A stretch of 64,000 nucleotides of DNA, from NCBI GenBank assembly GCA_913050005.1, contig CAJXBI010000001.1, forward strand, positions 90,748-154,747, in the 5' to 3' direction. A program made the translations under genes and the position numbers. The first letter of the stretch is position 1. Every line of letters begins with the position of its first letter. The notes below the pieces were generated by a model. That model did no database searches. It had not been told where the DNA came from and saw only the letters and a list, made by a program, of their open reading frames with translations. Source of the stretch: an uncultured Bacteroidota bacterium (lineage in GTDB: Bacteria; Bacteroidota; Bacteroidia; NS11-12g; UBA9320). Positions 9,043 through 38,778 of the stretch are shown one piece after another.

Positions 9043-9247
9043 ATTATTGATTAAATTTTGAGTTTTTGATACGTTCAGAATTTTTCAATTTAGAAGGTTT
9101 TCAAATAGTCGGATTTTTGATTCATAAGTCTATTGTAATCAGATAATTAAATTGATTAATTAATATTTTATTTATTGATTTTTTTTTATTCACAATAGTT
9201 GATAATTTAATGTTTAATGATTTGATATTAATTTTAAGTAAATAGCT

Positions 9248-25508: not shown

Positions 25509-26015
25509 TTATTGTTTACCGTAGTAATTTTTGTATTCTTTAGCTTTTTCAACATATACCAAAGCATTTTTTTTGATTTTTTCTTCTTCGATATTTGTTA
25601 TTTTTCTTATAATTTTTGCAGGAGAACCTAGGACTAAGGAGTTAGGGGGTATTTCCATTCCTGATGTAACTAATGAGTTAGCACCAATGATTGAAAACAC
25701 TCCAATTTTAGCGTCATTTAATATTGTTGCATTCATTCCTATAAGAACATGATCAGATAATTGAGCACCATGAACTATTGCTCCATGTCCAATGATACAG
25801 GATTTCCCAATTATGGCAGGTTTTCCTGGGTCGCAATGGATTACTGCATTATCCTGAATATTTGTTTGAGAGCCAATAGAAATACTGTCACTATCTCCTC
25901 TAATAATAGCTCCGAACCAAATACTTACATTATCGTGTAATTTAACGTTACCAATAACTGTAGCAGTGGGTGCTATGAAAACATTTTCACTTTGATTAAT
26001 CTGATCTAAATTCAT
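25509..26015 (-). CDS. Gamma-carbonic-anhydrase-like / left-handed beta-helix (hexapeptide repeat) protein
   Basis: Hexapeptide repeats throughout, 168 aa, YrdA/PaaY-like. Confidence 0.7.
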   Translation of the reverse strand: MNLDQINQSENVFIAPTATVIGNVKLHDNVSIWFGAIIRGDSDSISIGSQTNIQDNAVIHCDPGKPAIIGKSCIIGHGAIVHGAQLSDHVLIGMNATILNDAKIGVFSIIGANSLVTSGMEIPPNSLVLGSPAKIIRKITNIEEEKIKKNALVYVEKAKEYKNYYGKQ

Positions 26016-26734
26016 TCAATACGAATAGCTGTTTGGTAATAGTTATTGACCTCACCTAAAACAGTGTAATTAATGTAGTATGATTCTACCCATAATTTGA
26101 AAGCTTTGAATTCGTGCAAGGGAACATTGAATTCATCAAAAAATAAAATATCCCCTTTTTTTAAGAATGGGTTTAATGTGGTAAGAACAAACAAAGTAGA
26201 ATTAAATAAATCTGCATCAATATGAATAACAATTTTTCGATTTGAGGAGTATTCTTTTAAAAAAAAAGGTAAGGTTGTTTGAAATAGCCCTTGATAGAAT
26301 GAGTGCCGATTTCCTTTAATAATTGGAGGAGTATTATCATTGGACATAGCTCCTTTCTTGAATGGTCCCCAATCTTCGGGTAGGCCAGTGAATGTATCAA
26401 AACCATAAAACAGGGCACTTTTATTTTTTATTTTATTTATCCACCATTTGAATGAACTACCTTGAGCGACTCCAAATTCTAAATAATCAATTTCGGCGTC
26501 AAGATTTTCGCTGTTAATAATAAAGTCAAATAATTCATAACGATTGTTATAGTCAAATCCTGAATATGGATAGCTGCTAAATGGAACATTCTTATTTAAA
26601 TTAATCCATTGAGATGCCTTTGAAAGGTAACTTAGAGTCTCTAATGCGTCAGAAGGTAAAAACTTATGAATATTGAACCGATACAAAATTCGTTTGAGGT
26701 ATCTATTGATCCGTATCTGACTTTTCATTTTCAA
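26012..26734 (-). CDS. Class I SAM-dependent methyltransferase (TylF/Methyltransf_24-like)
   Basis: EFGVAQGSS and GFDTFTGLPEDW motifs. 4-nt overlap with the downstream LbH gene. Confidence 0.5.
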   Translation of the reverse strand: MKMKSQIRINRYLKRILYRFNIHKFLPSDALETLSYLSKASQWINLNKNVPFSSYPYSGFDYNNRYELFDFIINSENLDAEIDYLEFGVAQGSSFKWWINKIKNKSALFYGFDTFTGLPEDWGPFKKGAMSNDNTPPIIKGNRHSFYQGLFQTTLPFFLKEYSSNRKIVIHIDADLFNSTLFVLTTLNPFLKKGDILFFDEFNVPLHEFKAFKLWVESYYINYTVLGEVNNYYQTAIRIE

Positions 26735-34357: not shown

Positions 34358-34798
34358 TTATTCTTGAACTACGTCTACATCTATCTCAACAGATACTTCT
34401 TTATGAAGGTTAATTTTTGCTTTGTATGCACCAATATTTTTCATTTCTGGAGCAGAAATTTTACGTTTATCAATTTCAAAACCTCGATCTGTCAAACTTT
34501 TAGCAAGTTGTAGTATAGTCACAGAGCCAAAAATTTTACCATTTGATCCTGCTTTGGTTGGAATAGTAATCTTAAGATTTTTCATCTTTCCAGCTATAGC
34601 CTCAGCTTCGGTTTTAATTTTAATCTGCTTGTGAGCAGCTTGCTTTATATTTTCTTCAGCCATTTTTATTGCTGACGGAGTAGCAATAGCTGCTAACCCT
34701 TGGGGTATTAGGTAATTTCTACCGTATCCGTTTTTAACTTCAACGATGTCATTTTTTTCACCAAACCCTTTCACATAATCTTTTAATATTAATTTCAT
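34358..34798 (-). CDS. rplI: 50S ribosomal protein L9
   Basis: MKLILKDYVKGFGEKNDIVEVKNGYGRNYLIPQG. Confidence 0.95.
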   Translation of the reverse strand: MKLILKDYVKGFGEKNDIVEVKNGYGRNYLIPQGLAAIATPSAIKMAEENIKQAAHKQIKIKTEAEAIAGKMKNLKITIPTKAGSNGKIFGSVTILQLAKSLTDRGFEIDKRKISAPEMKNIGAYKAKINLHKEVSVEIDVDVVQE

Positions 34799-34823
34799 AT
34801 AGTTTTGAATTAAGGGGTTTGAA

Positions 34824-35078
34824 TTATTTCATTTCGTCGGCAACGTATGGTAACAACGCAATATGTCTGCATCTTTTCACTGCTACGGCAACTTTTCTTT
34901 GATATTTTAAGGATGTACCTGTTATTCTTCTTGGTAAAAGTTTACCTTGCTCATTGATGAATGCCATAAGGAAATCAGGATTTTTATAATCGATGTACTT
35001 AATACCACTTTTTTTGAAGCGACAATATTTTTTTGGACGTACAACTGGGGTTCTGGTATATCTTTTTCTTTTTGCCAT
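34824..35078 (-). CDS. rpsR: 30S ribosomal protein S18
   Basis: [17 protein letters not shown]...LPRRITG. Confidence 0.95.
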
Positions 35079-35079
35079 A

Positions 35080-35532
35080 TTATGATTCCTCCACTTCGTT
35101 AGTTGTTGATTCTACCTTTGCTTTTAGGACAGGTTCTTCTTTAGTTACTTGTTTAACTGCAGCAGTGTCTTCCTTTTTCGGCTTAGGCTTGTTAAATTCT
35201 CCGTTTCTTCTTCTTTCATTATATTTTAATGCATGCTTATCCAGTTTAGTTGTTAGATAACGGAGAACTTGCTCATCTCTTCGGTAAGCAAGTTCAAGTT
35301 TATCTACAATCTCTGCATCTGCATCTGCTGCAAACTCAAAAATCTGATAGAAACCTGTTGTTTTGTTCTGAATGGTATAGGCCATCTTAGTTAGCCCCCA
35401 ATTTTCTTTGTGGATGAGCTCTCCACCATTTTCTGTAATCAACTTTTCGAAAGAATTTGCTGCATCTTGCAACATCTTATCGCTAAGTACGGGTGTCAAT
35501 ATGACTACAGACTCGTAATTTGATTTAGCCAT
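35080..35532 (-). CDS. rpsF: 30S ribosomal protein S6 with long charged C-terminal extension
   Basis: S6 core (YESVVILTP...) plus a K/E-rich tail of about 50 aa. rpsF-rpsR-rplI gene order. Confidence 0.9.
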
Positions 35533-35720: not shown

Positions 35721-36812
35721 ATGGGAAGTTATTTAGTAAGTGCTAGAAAATATCGTCCAGAATCGTTTGATACAGTCGTTGGCCAAAAGCACATTACAGA
35801 AACTTTAGTCAATGAAATTACGAACGACAGATTAGCACAGGCTTTTTTATTTTGTGGTCCTCGTGGAGTTGGTAAAACTACATGTGCTCGGATTCTCGCC
35901 AAAGAGATAAATAAAAATACGGTACCTGAGGGTTATGATTTTTCATATAATATTTTTGAGTTGGACGCTGCATCCCATAATTCTGTAGACGATATTCGGT
36001 CGCTTACAGAGCAGGTACGGATTCCTCCCCAGACTGGAGAATACAAAGTTTATATTATTGATGAGGTTCATATGCTTTCGCAACAGGCTTTTAATGCTTT
36101 TTTGAAAACATTAGAAGAACCACCTAATTATGCCATCTTTATTCTAGCAACTACCGAAAAGCATAAGATTTTACCAACTATACTCTCGCGTTGTCAGGTA
36201 TTTAACTTTAATCGAATACAGGTATCGCAGATTGTAAGTTATCTTCAACAAATAGCCCTAGAGGAAAATATTACAGCTGAAGAAAGTGCTCTGCACCTAA
36301 TTGCACAAAAAGCAGACGGTGCCATGCGAGATGCTTTATCTATTTTTGACCAAATGGTCAGTTTTGGTGAGGACGAAAAAGTAACCTATCAAGCTGTCCT
36401 TAACAGCCTCAATATTTTAGATTATGAATATTATTTTAGAATAATCGATTCCTTTCTTGAAGGAGATATAAGTGGTGTATTAGTGTTGTTTGATGAAGTA
36501 CAAAGCAATGGTTTTGACGGTCAAATTTTTCTTAATGGACTTGCTAATCACCTAAGAGATTTATTAGTTGCTAAAAATGCATCTAGCCAACAACTAATTG
36601 AAAAATCAGAGGAGATATCTGGTAAGTATTTGACGCAATCCAAATCAGTTACTCATTCTTTTGTAGTAAATGCTATTAATATAATTGGTGAAGCAGACAT
36701 GAATTACAAGTCGAGTCATAATCAACGATTACATGTTGAGATTTGTCTAGTTAAGTTGGCATCTCTTCAACATGCTATTGACGTGACTAAAAAAAAAAGT
36801 CTAAACTTATAG
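35721..36812 (+). CDS. dnaX: DNA polymerase III subunit gamma/tau, zero-frame product (gamma-sized, 363 aa)
   Basis: ATG at 35721 (MGSYLVSARKYRPESF). Walker A GPRGVGKTT. DEVHML. The frame ends 4 codons after an A10 tract. Confidence 0.9.
   Translation: MGSYLVSARKYRPESFDTVVGQKHITETLVNEITNDRLAQAFLFCGPRGVGKTTCARILAKEINKNTVPEGYDFSYNIFELDAASHNSVDDIRSLTEQVRIPPQTGEYKVYIIDEVHMLSQQAFNAFLKTLEEPPNYAIFILATTEKHKILPTILSRCQVFNFNRIQVSQIVSYLQQIALEENITAEESALHLIAQKADGAMRDALSIFDQMVSFGEDEKVTYQAVLNSLNILDYEYYFRIIDSFLEGDISGVLVLFDEVQSNGFDGQIFLNGLANHLRDLLVAKNASSQQLIEKSEEISGKYLTQSKSVTHSFVVNAINIIGEADMNYKSSHNQRLHVEICLVKLASLQHAIDVTKKKSLNL
36789..36798 (+). other. A10 homopolymer: candidate -1 ribosomal frameshift / transcriptional slippage site in dnaX
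   Basis: ACT AAA AAA AAA AGT in frame 0 (an A AAA AAA heptamer). The -1 frame is open from 36791 to 37411. Confidence 0.6.
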
Positions 36813-37411
36813 TCCTTAGCGAATCAGGTTTTTTTGATAATTTTTTTGATTCTAATACTGAGGATGATTCGGATACACCTAAAGCTAAACAAAGTTTTAA
36901 TATTTCAGAAAATCAAGATAGTCAAGAAGTAGTTCGAATTGGAGGGCTGAAAAACATGATGAAGTCTGTAGGTGTAAAGTCAAAGATTACTGAACTAAGT
37001 TCCGATGATATTCCCAAATCTGAATCCATTAAGAATAGTATGCTTAAGAGTCTTACGTTGGATGAATCAAGGCGTTTGTTCATATCCTATGCTCAGGAGT
37101 TAACTACTCAAAAAAGAACAAGCTTGGCGGCATTTCTTTCGGATCCGTTGCTAAAAATAGGCGATAACAATACTGTCATATTTACCGTAGGTTCTAAAAT
37201 TGTTGAGACTGAAATCAAAGAAGAAGCGGTAAAAATAGTAGCTCATTTTGAGAAAAATGGTTACTCACTCAACAAACTAAACTGTAAAGTAAATGCAAAG
37301 CAAATAAGTGATTATAAAATGTTTACACCCAGACAACAATTTGATTCTTTTGCTGAAAAGTACCCAAAGCTGAATGACTTTGCAGAGCGGTTTTATTTAG
37401 ATTTTGATTGA
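36791..37411 (+). CDS. dnaX: dnaX -1 frame continuation: acidic linker plus tau C-terminal region
   Basis: The frame is open right from the A-tract, with no ATG/GTG/TTG before 36956. The sequence resembles the Bacteroidota DnaX C-terminus. The fused product would be about 560 aa. Confidence 0.6.
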   Translation, partial: KKKSKLIVLSESGFFDNFFDSNTEDDSDTPKAKQSFNISENQDSQEVVRIGGLKNMMKSVGVKSKITELSSDDIPKSESIKNSMLKSLTLDESRRLFISYAQELTTQKRTSLAAFLSDPLLKIGDNNTVIFTVGSKIVETEIKEEAVKIVAHFEKNGYSLNKLNCKVNAKQISDYKMFTPRQQFDSFAEKYPKLNDFAERFYLDFD

Positions 37412-37425
37412 AAAATGCTGAGAAA

Positions 37426-38151
37426 TTAAATACTTGCTTCAACAATCAAGTTCGGTTCAAATACGACATTATGCCAAGTACGAGCAGAACAAAATAAAAT
37501 TAACTTTTGTAAAGTAACGTAATTCCACCAACCAATTCTCCGAATGATCTCGAATATTGGATTTTGGTTTCGAACTAGTCCTCCATGCACACGAGTATTT
37601 AAAAATCCAATACTTTTCAATACTTGAAGTGCTGAGCTTTTATTTAAAAAAGTTTCATGACTAACATCACCGAAGGCGTATAAACTTGTTTGAGGAGCAT
37701 CCATGTTAGGGGTTCTAAGTATTATCTTTCCTCCAGGGTTGAGGCATTTTTTTGCTTTAGATAAAAATCTCATTAGCTCATCTTTTGTGAAATGTTCAAT
37801 TATATCTAGACCAACCAATACATCCACTTTTTCATTTTTATCAAAAAAGTCGTTAATATCACTACAGTAGATATTTTTCATACCAAGTTTGTGAGCTACG
37901 TTTACTTGCTCTTGACTTATGTCATAACCAGATACGTTGGAATAACCTGCATCCAAAGCAGGTTTTATAAATGTACCATACCCACACCCTAAGTCTACTA
38001 TTCTTGCATCCCTATTTTGAGGAAGAAGGTGTATAAGCTCACGTTGATTGTGGCGGGCTTGTTGGTGCAACATAGCCACATGATCAATATTTAATTTATT
38101 GACTTGTGTACTGAAGTAATTATCATAAATGATGTCTCGATAGTTGAGCAT
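37426..38151 (-). CDS. Class I SAM-dependent methyltransferase
   Basis: VDLGCGYGTF motif I, 241 aa. Confidence 0.7.
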   Translation of the reverse strand: MLNYRDIIYDNYFSTQVNKLNIDHVAMLHQQARHNQRELIHLLPQNRDARIVDLGCGYGTFIKPALDAGYSNVSGYDISQEQVNVAHKLGMKNIYCSDINDFFDKNEKVDVLVGLDIIEHFTKDELMRFLSKAKKCLNPGGKIILRTPNMDAPQTSLYAFGDVSHETFLNKSSALQVLKSIGFLNTRVHGGLVRNQNPIFEIIRRIGWWNYVTLQKLILFCSARTWHNVVFEPNLIVEASI

Positions 38152-38169
38152 ATGCTTGCAAACTTATAT

Positions 38170-38177
38170 TATTTTTG
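38170..38177 (+). promoter_or_regulatory. -7 promoter box TATTTTTG upstream of rnhB
   Basis: Exact TAnnTTTG, 4 nt from the ATG at 38182. Confidence 0.45.
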
Positions 38178-38181
38178 CTCG

Positions 38182-38778
38182 ATGCTCAAAAGCTATTTTC
38201 ATAAAAATTTGCTTGAGGCTGGTTGTGATGAGGCTGGAAGAGGTTGCTTAGCAGGTCCTGTTTTTGCAGCTGCAGTAATTCTACCTCCTCGAGTAAGATT
38301 ACCATTGCTCAATGATTCTAAAAAATTATCGTCAGATGTTCGCAATCTTCTTCGAAAGCAAATTGAAGAAAAAGCATTAGCATGGGCTTTGGCAAGCTGT
38401 TCAGAACGTGAAATAGAAAATTATAATATTCTTAATTGTAGTATTCTTGCTATGCAAAGGGCTGTACAGCAATTATATATTCGACCAGAACATCTACTTA
38501 TAGATGGTAATCGATTTAAACCATTTGATTTTTTTAGCTATACCACGATTATCAAAGGTGATGGCAAGTATAAGAGCATTGCTGCTGCTAGTATTTTGGC
38601 AAAAACCCATCGAGATGAGTATATGATTAACTTGAGTAAAAAACATCCTGAATATGACTTTGATAAGCACAAGGGGTATGGTACAAAAAAACATGTACAG
38701 GCTATTCATAAATTAGGCTATTTAGATTGCCACCGAAAGACCTTTCAATTAAAAAACAGTAAATCAAAATCAGGCTGA
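38182..38778 (+). CDS. rnhB: Ribonuclease HII
   Basis: GCDEAGRGCLAGPV motif. I prefer the ATG at 38182, because the longer TTG/ATG starts overlap or abut the divergent gene. Confidence 0.9.
   Translation: MLKSYFHKNLLEAGCDEAGRGCLAGPVFAAAVILPPRVRLPLLNDSKKLSSDVRNLLRKQIEEKALAWALASCSEREIENYNILNCSILAMQRAVQQLYIRPEHLLIDGNRFKPFDFFSYTTIIKGDGKYKSIAAASILAKTHRDEYMINLSKKHPEYDFDKHKGYGTKKHVQAIHKLGYLDCHRKTFQLKNSKSKSG

What the first reader, a model, noticed from the sequence alone, without database searches (positions are those of the whole stretch)
35721..37411. dnaX is interrupted at an A10 tract: gamma-sized product in frame 0, tau C-terminus only in the -1 frame
**What the sequence shows.** Frame 0 reads ...GAC GTG ACT AAA AAA AAA AGT CTA AAC TTA TAG, so the run of ten A lies at 36789-36798 and the stop at 36810-36812. 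That gives a 363-aa protein holding only the clamp-loader ATPase part. The -1 frame is open from 36791 straight through to 37411. It has no ATG, GTG or TTG before 36956. It encodes an acidic low-complexity linker (GFFDNFFDSNTEDDSD...) and then a region that looks like the C-terminus of full-length Bacteroidota DnaX. The fused product would be about 560 aa.

**Why it matters.** E. coli makes gamma by -1 frameshifting at A AAA AAG, and Thermus makes it by transcriptional slippage on a poly-A run. In both, tau is the zero-frame product. Here the polarity is reversed: the essential tau form would need the recoding event. I see no strong downstream stem-loop and no upstream SD-like stimulator. That favours RNA polymerase slippage (one extra A in the mRNA) over ribosomal frameshifting. 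A homopolymer miscount in the assembly is the other simple explanation.
Basis: partly seen in the sequence, partly recalled or inferred. Interest (0 to 1): 0.7.

Follow-up and report, generated by a model that had tools for sequence, protein, structure and literature searches.

The report
Conserved poly-A recoding site in dnaX
The replication clamp-loader gene dnaX of this marine Bacteroidia bacterium is truly split at a run of ten A's, so the long (tau) protein needs a programmed one-base slip; the break is conserved across relatives, but this arrangement was described in 2013.

Summary
dnaX starts at 35721. An A10 run lies at 36789-36798. Frame 0 stops at 36810-36812, giving a 363-aa gamma-sized product. 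The -1 frame is open from 36791 to 37411, and a one-A insertion would give a 563-aa tau.

It is not an assembly error. All 18 close relatives whose DNA I read, and about 64 protein clusters down to 70% identity, share the same A10 and the same -1 break. So do cultured Flavobacterium and Chryseobacterium. The -1 ORF is under purifying selection (dN/dS 0.14-0.29). It is homologous to the C-terminus of uninterrupted Bacteroidota DnaX (hhalign 98.3%, E 2.6e-14).

No conserved RNA structure or SD-like stimulator flanks the site. Run length stays at 10 in all three codon phases. Both non-tau frames stop within a few codons. These points favour RNA-polymerase slippage over ribosomal frameshifting, but that is inferred, not shown.

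Forty-six of 53 uninterrupted Bacteroidota dnaX genes carry the same tract in frame, so the polarity has flipped repeatedly.

The reversed arrangement was published by Antonov et al. 2013 (NAR 41:6514) for Flavobacterium, Cytophaga, Capnocytophaga and Chlorobi, and is noted in Atkins et al. 2016. Verdict: real and functional, a new member of a known kind, of moderate to low interest.

The parts
35721..36812 (+). dnaX ORF1, genomic frame 0. It encodes 363 aa covering clamp-loader domains I-III, a gamma-sized product ending ...HAIDVTKKKSLNL*.
   Evidence: Translation. Pfam hits DNA_pol3_delta2, DNAX_ATPase_lid and DNA_pol3_gamma3. NCBIfam hits TIGR02397 dnaX_nterm and PRK14971.
36789..36798 (+). 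A10 slippery tract (T10 on the template strand), the recoding site. It starts at codon position 1. It contains A_AAA_AAA in X_XXY_YYZ register, with X at 36791.
   Evidence: The tract is invariant in 18 of 18 close relatives, while the flanking codons vary synonymously.
36788..36790 (+). TAA stop in the -1 frame. It closes the tau frame immediately upstream of the tract, so the shift cannot occur before 36791.
36802..36804 (+). TAA stop in the +1 frame, one codon after the tract. Transcripts with A12 or A9 would give a gamma-like product, ...KKKKV* for A12 and ...KKKV* for A9.
36810..36812 (+). TAG stop of frame 0, which ends gamma four codons after the tract.
36791..37411 (+). dnaX ORF2 in the -1 frame: 206 codons plus TGA, the tau-specific C-terminal region. 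It has no start codon before 36956. Its amino-acid conservation begins right at the tract (KKK[SP]K..L.[ST]G[FY]F).
   Evidence: dN/dS is 0.14-0.29. hhalign against the C-terminus of uninterrupted Bacteroidota DnaX gives 98.3%, E 2.6e-14.
36791..37042 (+). Predicted disordered acidic linker of tau (ORF2 residues 1-84). It includes the conserved short motif LSESGFFDNFF.
   Evidence: AF2 pLDDT is below 60 over residues 1-80. The motif is conserved.
37043..37408 (+). Folded C-terminal domain of tau (ORF2 residues 85-206). It ends with FTPRQQFDSFAEKYPKLNDFAERFYLDFD, the DUF8439/PF28557-type end of Bacteroidota DnaX.
   Evidence: AF2 pLDDT is above 90 over most of residues 90-206. PF28557 is recorded on full-length relatives and on relatives' ORF2 products. 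Alignment.

Best explanation
This is a functional dnaX gene with a conserved programmed recoding site.

**What the DNA encodes.** The genomic frame encodes only the gamma-type clamp-loader subunit (363 aa). The tau-specific C-terminal third lies in the -1 frame.

**Proposed mechanism (inferred).**
1. RNA polymerase transcribes the T10 template tract. The weak rA:dT hybrid lets the nascent RNA realign.
2. This yields a mixed mRNA population: A10, A11, A12 and so on, with insertions predominating as shown for Thermus dnaX.
3. Ordinary translation then decodes each species.
   - A10 gives gamma (...DVTKKKSLNL).
   - A11 (also A8 or A14) gives the 563-aa tau (...DVTKKKKSKLIVLSESGFF...).
   - A12 or A9 gives a gamma-like product that stops after one codon.

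So one gene supplies both clamp-loader subunits in a ratio set by tract length.

**Shown.** The anatomy of the site. Its strict conservation. Purifying selection on the -1 ORF. Homology of that ORF to the tau C-terminus. The absence of conserved frameshift stimulators.

**Inferred.** That slippage by RNA polymerase, rather than by the ribosome, is the main route. The product ratio. That the C-terminal domain binds Pol III alpha and DnaB, as E. coli tau does.

The confidence of 0.7 is for the full statement, with slippage as the main route. That a conserved recoding event of some kind makes tau here I put at about 0.95.
For: 1. **Conserved break.** A10, phase 0 and -1 frame occur in 8 of 8 relatives reached through protein look-ups, at about 96% to 69% aa identity. 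The same holds in 10 of 10 further metagenome contigs. All roughly 64 protein clusters at 70% identity or more are 360-363 aa (or N-terminal variants or fragments of that form) and end ...KKK + 1-4 residues. None is full length.
2. **Wider spread.** Twenty-six of the 80 more distant Bacteroidota loci, including isolates of Flavobacterium and Chryseobacterium, break at the same place. Run length is 10 in 22, 12 in 2, 13 in 1 and 9 in 1.
3. **Length is what is conserved, not register.** The run begins at codon phase 0, 1 or 2 in different lineages yet stays at 10. In L102 a G-to-A substitution lengthens it to A11 without changing the frame relation.
4. **No stimulators.** The downstream 82 nt fold with z = -0.65. 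The clade alignments show 0 conserved pairs downstream and only 4 weak pairs upstream. No SD-like sequence is present.
5. **Only one of three frames is long.** In 31 interrupted genes, frame 0 stops at a median of 3 codons and the +1 frame at 2 (control 10, p about 4e-9, not corrected for phylogeny). The -1 frame runs about 200 codons. This is the logic described for Thermus slippage.
6. **The same tract occurs in frame elsewhere.** Forty-six of 53 uninterrupted Bacteroidota dnaX genes carry an A9-A11 run at the same position (A10 in 40). Stops follow quickly in both alternative frames: median 2 and 4.5 codons against 8 and 11 in controls, p about 1e-13 and 5e-9.
7. **The -1 ORF is a real coding region.** dN/dS is 0.14-0.29, against 0.04-0.06 for ORF1. 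hhalign to the tau C-terminus gives 98.3%, E 2.6e-14. AF2 predicts a confident domain.
8. **The same reading is published.** Antonov et al. 2013 drew the same inference for A10 dnaX genes.
Against: - No transcript or protein data exist for this organism or, as far as I could find, for any Bacteroidota dnaX. The mechanism rests on comparative inference.
- Any A10 run contains A_AAA_AAA in the right register. In phase-1 lineages such as Flavobacterium it contains the exact E. coli heptamer A_AAA_AAG. So -1 ribosomal frameshifting would yield the same tau protein and cannot be excluded.
- The productive direction is -1 in 23 of the 26 poly-A-interrupted loci (41 of 45 once the window, its 18 close relatives, L101 and L102 are added). 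That also fits -1 frameshifting.
- The p-values are not corrected for phylogenetic non-independence.
- The slippage behaviour of Bacteroidota RNA polymerase on A10/T10 is unknown.
Confidence: 0.7

Rival explanations
1. Tau is made by -1 programmed ribosomal frameshifting. Ribosomes with tRNA-Lys in the P and A sites slip back one base on A_AAA_AAA (36791-36797) on an unedited A10 mRNA. This could be the sole route or act alongside slippage.
For: - The heptamer is in the correct X_XXY_YYZ register.
- The required direction is -1 in nearly all lineages.
- Phase-1 lineages carry the E. coli dnaX heptamer A_AAA_AAG.
- Atkins et al. 2016 discuss the reversed dnaX genes under ribosomal frameshifting, and name Chlorobium phaeobacteroides (A7) as having E. 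coli-like stimulators.
Against: - There is no conserved downstream stem-loop and no upstream SD-like element.
- Only 7 A's are needed for frameshifting, yet run length is held at 10 across three codon phases.
- The +1 frame is also closed within about 2 codons. That matters only if transcripts with other run lengths exist.
- Three loci need the opposite direction (L011, L068, L076).
- From my own knowledge: unstimulated A_AAA_AAA is much less shifty than A_AAA_AAG in E. coli. Atkins 2016 says the same.
Confidence: 0.2
2. Assembly or sequencing homopolymer miscount. The real genome has A11 (or A8) and one continuous tau ORF.
For: - Homopolymers are error-prone.
- One relative from a 2x-coverage long-read contig shows A9, which is probably an error (L101).
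Against: - Identical A10 with a -1 break is seen in 18 of 18 independent assemblies from different projects and platforms.
- About 64 protein clusters show it, some with up to 155 member sequences.
- Cultured isolates show it, as do finished genomes in Antonov 2013.
- Relatives with an in-frame A10 are assembled correctly.
- The stops placed in frame 0 and in the +1 frame just after the run are conserved design features.
Confidence: 0.01
3. A truly split gene. The cell uses only the 363-aa DnaX. The downstream ORF is translated on its own as a separate protein, or is a decaying remnant.
For: Gene callers annotate a separate 116-189-aa ORF downstream in relatives.
Against: - No start codon lies in the -1 frame before 36956.
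- The called starts differ between relatives.
- Amino-acid conservation in the -1 frame begins at the A-run itself, upstream of any start (KKK[SP]K..L..G[FY]F).
- dN/dS of 0.14-0.29 excludes a remnant.
- From established E. coli replisome biology: a clamp loader without tau cannot couple Pol III alpha and DnaB.
Confidence: 0.04
4. DNA-level phase variation. Slipped-strand mispairing at replication switches the population between A10 and A11 alleles.
For: Homopolymer tracts are classical phase-variation sites, as discussed in Antonov 2013.
Against: - The consensus is A10 in every assembly of the clade.
- dnaX is an essential housekeeping gene, not a surface or contingency gene.
- An off state would be lethal.
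Confidence: 0.02

Closest known systems
Two-ORF dnaX in which tau requires recoding (GeneTack dnaX cluster; Antonov et al. 2013, NAR 41:6514, PMC3711429; noted in Atkins et al. 2016, PMC5009743)
   Same: - dnaX domains I-III lie in ORF1.
- A poly-A tract, typically A10 followed by G, sits at the junction.
- Tau's C-terminus is in the -1 frame.
- The zero-frame stop follows just after the tract.
- The published set includes the same phylum (Flavobacterium johnsoniae, F. psychrophilum, Cytophaga hutchinsonii, Capnocytophaga ochracea), plus Chlorobi and Coraliomargarita.
- The authors also propose transcriptional realignment.
   Different: Nothing essential differs. This is an uncultured, probably marine, Bacteroidia lineage that is not in the published set of 17 genes. 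The tract here starts at codon phase 0 (ACT AAA AAA AAA AGT), whereas it is phase 1 in Flavobacterium.
Thermus thermophilus dnaX transcriptional slippage (Larsen et al. 2000, as summarised in Atkins 2016)
   Same: - A homopolymer of 9-10 A sits at the domain III/IV boundary.
- Only one of the three frames is long, and the other two stop at once.
- No RNA stimulators are needed.
- Two products come from one gene.
   Different: In Thermus, tau is the genomic zero frame and slipped transcripts give gamma. Here the unslipped transcript gives gamma and the +1-A transcript gives tau. Transcript heterogeneity is demonstrated in Thermus and untested here.
E. coli dnaX -1 programmed ribosomal frameshift
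   Same: - The same gene, and the same position at the end of domain III.
- A lysine-codon slippery run.
- A -1 direction.
- Two products sharing an N-terminus.
   Different: - E. coli uses A_AAA_AAG with an upstream SD-like element and a downstream stem-loop. None of these three is present here.
- In E. coli, tau is the zero-frame product.
Poly(A)-tract frameshifts rescued by polymerase infidelity in insect endosymbionts (Tamas et al. 2008; Wernegreen et al. 2010; cited)
   Same: An essential gene is interrupted at an A tract of about 10, and full-length protein is recovered through slipped transcripts. Such tracts can be kept by selection.
   Different: In endosymbionts this is a genome-wide by-product of AT bias and genetic drift, affecting many genes. 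In this window long homopolymers are depleted (1 against 5.8 expected), the other roughly 50 ORFs are intact, and the site is an ancient phylum-wide feature that yields two useful products.

Membership tests
Two-ORF dnaX with tau by recoding (Antonov 2013) | ORF1 is dnaX domains I-III (the clamp-loader ATPase). | tested here: met
   Pfam PF13177, PF22608 and PF12169. NCBIfam TIGR02397 at 382 bits against a cutoff of 250.
Two-ORF dnaX with tau by recoding (Antonov 2013) | A poly-A tract (7-10 A, typically A10) sits at the ORF1/ORF2 junction. | tested here: met
   A10 at 36789-36798.
Two-ORF dnaX with tau by recoding (Antonov 2013) | ORF2 overlaps ORF1 in the -1 frame and encodes the tau C-terminal region. 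| tested here: met
   The -1 ORF spans 36791-37411. It is colinear with residues 388-574 of a 575-aa DnaX. Profile-profile comparison gives 98.3%, E 2.6e-14.
Two-ORF dnaX with tau by recoding (Antonov 2013) | The position and direction of the frameshift are conserved among orthologues. | tested here: met
   Eighteen of 18 close relatives. About 64 protein clusters. Twenty-three of 26 more distant poly-A-interrupted loci are -1.
Two-ORF dnaX with tau by recoding (Antonov 2013) | A full-length tau is actually produced. | not testable with these tools
   This needs a western blot, proteomics or cDNA. Purifying selection on ORF2 is only indirect support.
E. coli-type dnaX -1 PRF cassette | The A_AAA_AAG heptamer lies in the zero frame. 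| tested here: not met
   The zero frame reads ACT AAA AAA AAA AGT. The heptamer is A_AAA_AAA.
E. coli-type dnaX -1 PRF cassette | An SD-like stimulator lies about 10 nt upstream. | tested here: not met
   The upstream sequence CTTCAACATGCTATTGACGTGACT has no GGAG, AGGA or GAGG. The same holds across the clade alignment.
E. coli-type dnaX -1 PRF cassette | A stimulatory stem-loop lies downstream. | tested here: not met
   Folding gives z = -0.65. The alignment of 8 relatives shows 0 conserved pairs.
Thermus-type dnaX transcriptional slippage | A homopolymeric A run of at least 9 at the end of domain III. | tested here: met
   A10. It occupies the same position in 72 of the 80 Bacteroidota loci.
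Thermus-type dnaX transcriptional slippage | Stops follow closely in both frames that do not encode tau. | tested here: met
   Frame 0 stops after 4 codons and the +1 frame after 1 codon. The pattern is general.
Thermus-type dnaX transcriptional slippage | Tau is encoded in the genomic zero frame. | tested here: not met
   Tau lies in the -1 frame.
Thermus-type dnaX transcriptional slippage | The mRNA population is heterogeneous in A-run length. | not testable with these tools
Endosymbiont-type poly(A) frameshift rescue | A genome-wide excess of long poly(A/T) tracts with many disrupted genes. | tested here: not met
   One A/T run of 10 or more, against 5.8 expected. The neighbouring ORFs are intact and tightly packed.

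The most novel reading that the evidence does not exclude
The A10 tract is not a lineage oddity. It looks like an ancient, nearly phylum-wide slippage module in Bacteroidota dnaX: 72 of the 80 sampled loci carry it at the same position. The tau/gamma polarity has flipped repeatedly, even within the family Flavobacteriaceae. Flavobacterium, Wenyingzhuangia and Myroides are interrupted. Aquimarina, Polaribacter and Kordia are in frame. Such free flipping would imply that Bacteroidota RNA polymerase slips on T10 at close to 50% efficiency, so either frame can serve as the genomic one. I found the interrupted genes described in the literature. I did not find the in-frame A10 majority or the repeated flips described.
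Probability: 0.55. Interest if true: 0.45.

Novelty: new member of a known kind. Interest (0 to 1): 0.3.

Why it matters
**Annotation.** Gene callers, and the database records seen here, split this essential gene into a short "gamma/tau" protein and an unnamed hypothetical ORF. Recognising the recoding site restores a full-length tau in a large set of Bacteroidota genomes and MAGs. It also stops the break being scored as a pseudogene or as an assembly error.

**Biology.** This is a clean natural case in which an essential replisome subunit depends on a non-templated base. The phylum-wide tract with flipping polarity gives a comparative system for asking how slippage efficiency is tuned by run length. 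None of this is a new principle. The arrangement was published in 2013.

Tried and rejected
- **Genome-contig scan with ORF1.** I recovered it through the look-up of encoding contigs and a metagenome scan with ORF2.
- **RNA stimulators.** The upstream hairpin in the window (z = -2.0) is not conserved in relatives and ends 14 nt before the tract. I rejected it as a stimulator. The downstream fold is no better than shuffles.
- **Rfam and tRNA scans of the window.** Both returned nothing. The tRNA-Lys repertoire therefore could not be assessed.
- **Promoter and terminator scan around ORF2.** Nothing above the shuffle expectation. The scan does not model Bacteroidota promoters.
- **PDB sequence search with the ORF2 profile.** No meaningful hit.
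- **Foldseek of the AF2 model against the PDB.** No hit at E of 1e-3 or better. The weak top hits are DciA, DnaA domain I and, at rank 45, E. coli tau domain V. That fits a small KH-like replication-protein fold but is inconclusive.
- **Literature.** I found no experimental test of Bacteroidota dnaX recoding. Larsen et al. 2000 is not held in the library, so I cite it through Atkins 2016.
- **Pfam PF28557/DUF8439.** The local Pfam copy did not report it on the fused protein. It appears only in the precomputed annotations of relatives.
Full report
**1. The observation**

- dnaX starts at ATG 35721.
- Frame 0 reads ...GAC GTG ACT AAA AAA AAA AGT CTA AAC TTA TAG.
- The A10 run lies at 36789-36798, and the frame-0 stop at 36810-36812, giving 363 aa.
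- The -1 frame has TAA at 36788-36790. It is then open for 206 codons to the TGA at 37409-37411.
- The first ATG/GTG/TTG in the -1 frame is at 36956.
- The +1 frame stops at 36802-36804.
- Any productive shift must therefore occur within 36791-36809, which in practice means on the A run.
- One extra A gives a 563-aa protein reading ...DVTKKKKSKLIVLSESGFF....

A10 is the longest homopolymer in the window. It is not improbable from composition alone, since dinucleotide shuffles give 5.8 A10/T10 runs per window against 1 observed. Long homopolymers are in fact avoided here, and the one that remains sits at this junction.

**2. What the two ORFs are**

ORF1 carries clamp-loader domains I-III. Pfam reports DNA_pol3_delta2, DNAX_ATPase_lid and DNA_pol3_gamma3. 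NCBIfam reports TIGR02397 dnaX_nterm and PRK14971.

The fused sequence aligns end to end with uninterrupted 573-603-aa Bacteroidota DnaX proteins, at 46-49% identity and 98-100% coverage.

ORF2 alone is colinear with residues 388-574 of a 575-aa DnaX. A profile of ORF2 from the clade matches a profile of the C-terminal parts of uninterrupted DnaX with hhalign probability 98.3% and E 2.6e-14. The match covers 156 columns and runs to the extreme C-terminus.

AlphaFold2 predicts a disordered linker (residues 1-80) followed by a confident domain, with pLDDT above 90 over most of residues 90-206. Foldseek against the PDB gives no significant match. The weak top hits are DciA, DnaA domain I and, far down the list, E. 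coli tau domain V. The fold assignment is therefore inconclusive.

**3. Not an assembly artefact**

The top roughly 64 protein clusters run from 99% down to about 70% identity and come from ENA, NCBI, JGI and Logan assemblies. All are 360-363 aa, or N-terminal start variants or fragments of that form. All end ...D[VL][TSVA]KKK plus one to four residues. None is full length.

I read the DNA of 8 relatives at about 96-69% identity and of 10 further metagenome contigs found with ORF2. All 18 have exactly A10, starting at codon phase 0, with the C-terminal ORF in the -1 frame and an overlap of 16-28 nt. The flanking codons vary synonymously (ACT, TCT or GTC before the run; AGT or AGC after it), while the run itself is invariant.

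Two deviants are informative.
- L102 has A11 because the G after the run became A. Its frame relation is unchanged.
- L101 has A9, but it comes from a 2x-coverage long-read contig and is probably an error.

**4. ORF2 is a working coding region translated as a fusion**

Nei-Gojobori dN/dS for ORF2 in the -1 frame is 0.29 for the window against L081, and 0.14-0.26 for deeper pairs. ORF1 gives 0.04-0.06.

Amino-acid conservation in the -1 frame begins at the run itself (KKK[SP]K..[IL]..[ST]G[FY][FY]..LF). That is 55 codons upstream of the first possible start codon in the window. The starts chosen by gene callers differ between relatives. Independent translation of ORF2 is therefore unlikely.

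**5. Wider distribution**

The genome-contig scan returned 80 Bacteroidota loci at 54-63% identity.

Twenty-seven have the short zero-frame ORF, and 26 of these break at a poly-A run. Run length is 10 in 22, 12 in 2, 13 in 1 and 9 in 1. They include isolates of Flavobacterium and Chryseobacterium, as well as Marinoscillum, Roseivirga, Wenyingzhuangia, Myroides, Paludibacter and Sunxiuqinia. The run starts at codon phase 0, 1 or 2 in different lineages, yet its length stays at 10. Tau lies in the -1 frame in 23 loci and in the +1 frame in 3 (L011, L068, L076).

Of the 53 uninterrupted genes, 46 carry an in-frame A9-A11 run at the same position, A10 in 40 of them. Stops follow quickly in both alternative frames.
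- The -1 frame stops at a median of 2 codons, against 8 at control positions (p about 1e-13).
- The +1 frame stops at a median of 4.5 codons, against 11 (p about 5e-9).
- These p-values are not corrected for phylogeny.

Only Bacteroidaceae-type genes and a few others lack the tract.

In the interrupted genes the two non-tau frames likewise stop after a median of 3 and 2 codons, while the tau frame runs for about 200.

So in nearly all Bacteroidota dnaX genes exactly one frame after an A10 run encodes tau, and the other two stop at once. Which frame is the genomic one differs between genera, even within Flavobacteriaceae.

**6. Mechanism**

No conserved RNA structure flanks the site.
- The downstream 82 nt fold with z = -0.65, and the 8-sequence alignment shows no conserved pairs.
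- The upstream hairpin in the window (z = -2.0) is not conserved and ends 14 nt before the run.
- No SD-like sequence lies upstream.

Four points match what is described for Thermus dnaX. There, slippage on a 9-base run gives mRNAs with one or more extra A's in diminishing proportion, and stops lie nearby in both non-zero frames (Atkins et al. 2016).
- Run length is held at 10, when 7 A's would be enough for the ribosome.
- The codon phase of the run varies.
- Both non-tau frames are closed.
- A few lineages need the opposite direction.

I therefore favour transcriptional slippage. A10 mRNA would give gamma. A11 mRNA would give tau. A12 or A9 mRNA would give a gamma-like product.

This remains inference. 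Any A10 run contains A_AAA_AAA in register, and in phase-1 lineages it contains A_AAA_AAG. The dominant direction is -1. So -1 ribosomal frameshifting would give the same protein and may contribute.

**7. Comparison with what is known**

Antonov et al. [quoted passage not shown]
- They found 17 genes from 12 genera, with a -1 frameshift at the DNA level.
- Nine of the genes have A10, among them Flavobacterium johnsoniae, F. psychrophilum, Cytophaga hutchinsonii, Capnocytophaga ochracea, Chlorobium species and Coraliomargarita.
- They attributed the shift to programmed transcriptional realignment, by analogy with Thermus.

Atkins et al. 2016 (PMC5009743) restate the reversed arrangement. [quoted passage not shown]

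I found no experimental test in Bacteroidota.

The window's gene meets every sequence-level criterion of that published class. It fails the E. coli cassette criteria. It differs from Thermus only in polarity.

**8. Verdict**

The feature is real, conserved and functional.

The modest added value is twofold. First, the tract is near-universal in the phylum, including in uninterrupted genes, and the polarity has flipped repeatedly. Second, current annotations of these genomes still split the gene.

Noticed in passing
window, whole (A/T runs at 9179-9187, 26259-26267, 36789-36798): Long homopolymers are depleted. One A10/T10 run is observed, against 5.8 expected from dinucleotide shuffles. The only other runs of 9 are T9 at 9179-9187, which is intergenic, and A9 at 26259-26267, which lies inside an intact minus-strand ORF (26012-26734).
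   Followed up: partly
window 36815-36847 (-1 frame, LSESGFFDNFF); same position in L081-L089; Flavobacteriaceae loci L010, L014, L024, L025, L064, L065: A short motif found only in tau sits just after the slip site and is conserved. In the clade it reads L[SA][EDQ][ST]G[FY][FY]xxLF. In Flavobacteriaceae it reads IIP[AP][ST][YF]F. It looks like a linear binding motif inside the disordered linker. Its partner is unknown.
   Followed up: no
L011 (Flavobacteriales MAG), L068 (Paludibacter MAG), L076 (Flavobacterium sp. YO12): In these three loci tau lies in the +1 frame rather than the -1 frame. The runs are A10, A10 and A9. These are either assembly miscounts or lineages that need a one-base deletion or a two-base insertion in the transcript. 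If real, they argue for slippage over -1 frameshifting.
   Followed up: partly
L080 (Bacteroidales MAG, GC-rich): Here dnaX ends at 366 aa with no poly-A run and no long continuing frame. This is a different kind of break, possibly an assembly or binning error.
   Followed up: no
L017 (CAZYBT010000031.1): The contig is labelled 'uncultured Rhizobium sp.' but carries a Bacteroidota-type dnaX, 61% identical, with the in-frame A10 tract. The MAG is probably mislabelled or contaminated.
   Followed up: no
window 34358-35532 (-) and 37426-38778: The gene neighbourhood is conserved across the clade. rplI-rpsR-rpsF lies divergently upstream of dnaX. A SAM-dependent methyltransferase (minus strand) and RNase HII lie downstream. 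Some relatives have an ABC ATPase inserted after dnaX.
   Followed up: partly
window 37043-37408 (ORF2 residues 85-206): The AF2 model of the tau C-terminal domain is confident (pLDDT above 90) but has no significant PDB neighbour. The weak hits are DciA, DnaA domain I, RbfA and E. coli tau domain V. The Bacteroidota tau C-terminal domain (DUF8439) has no solved structure.
   Followed up: partly
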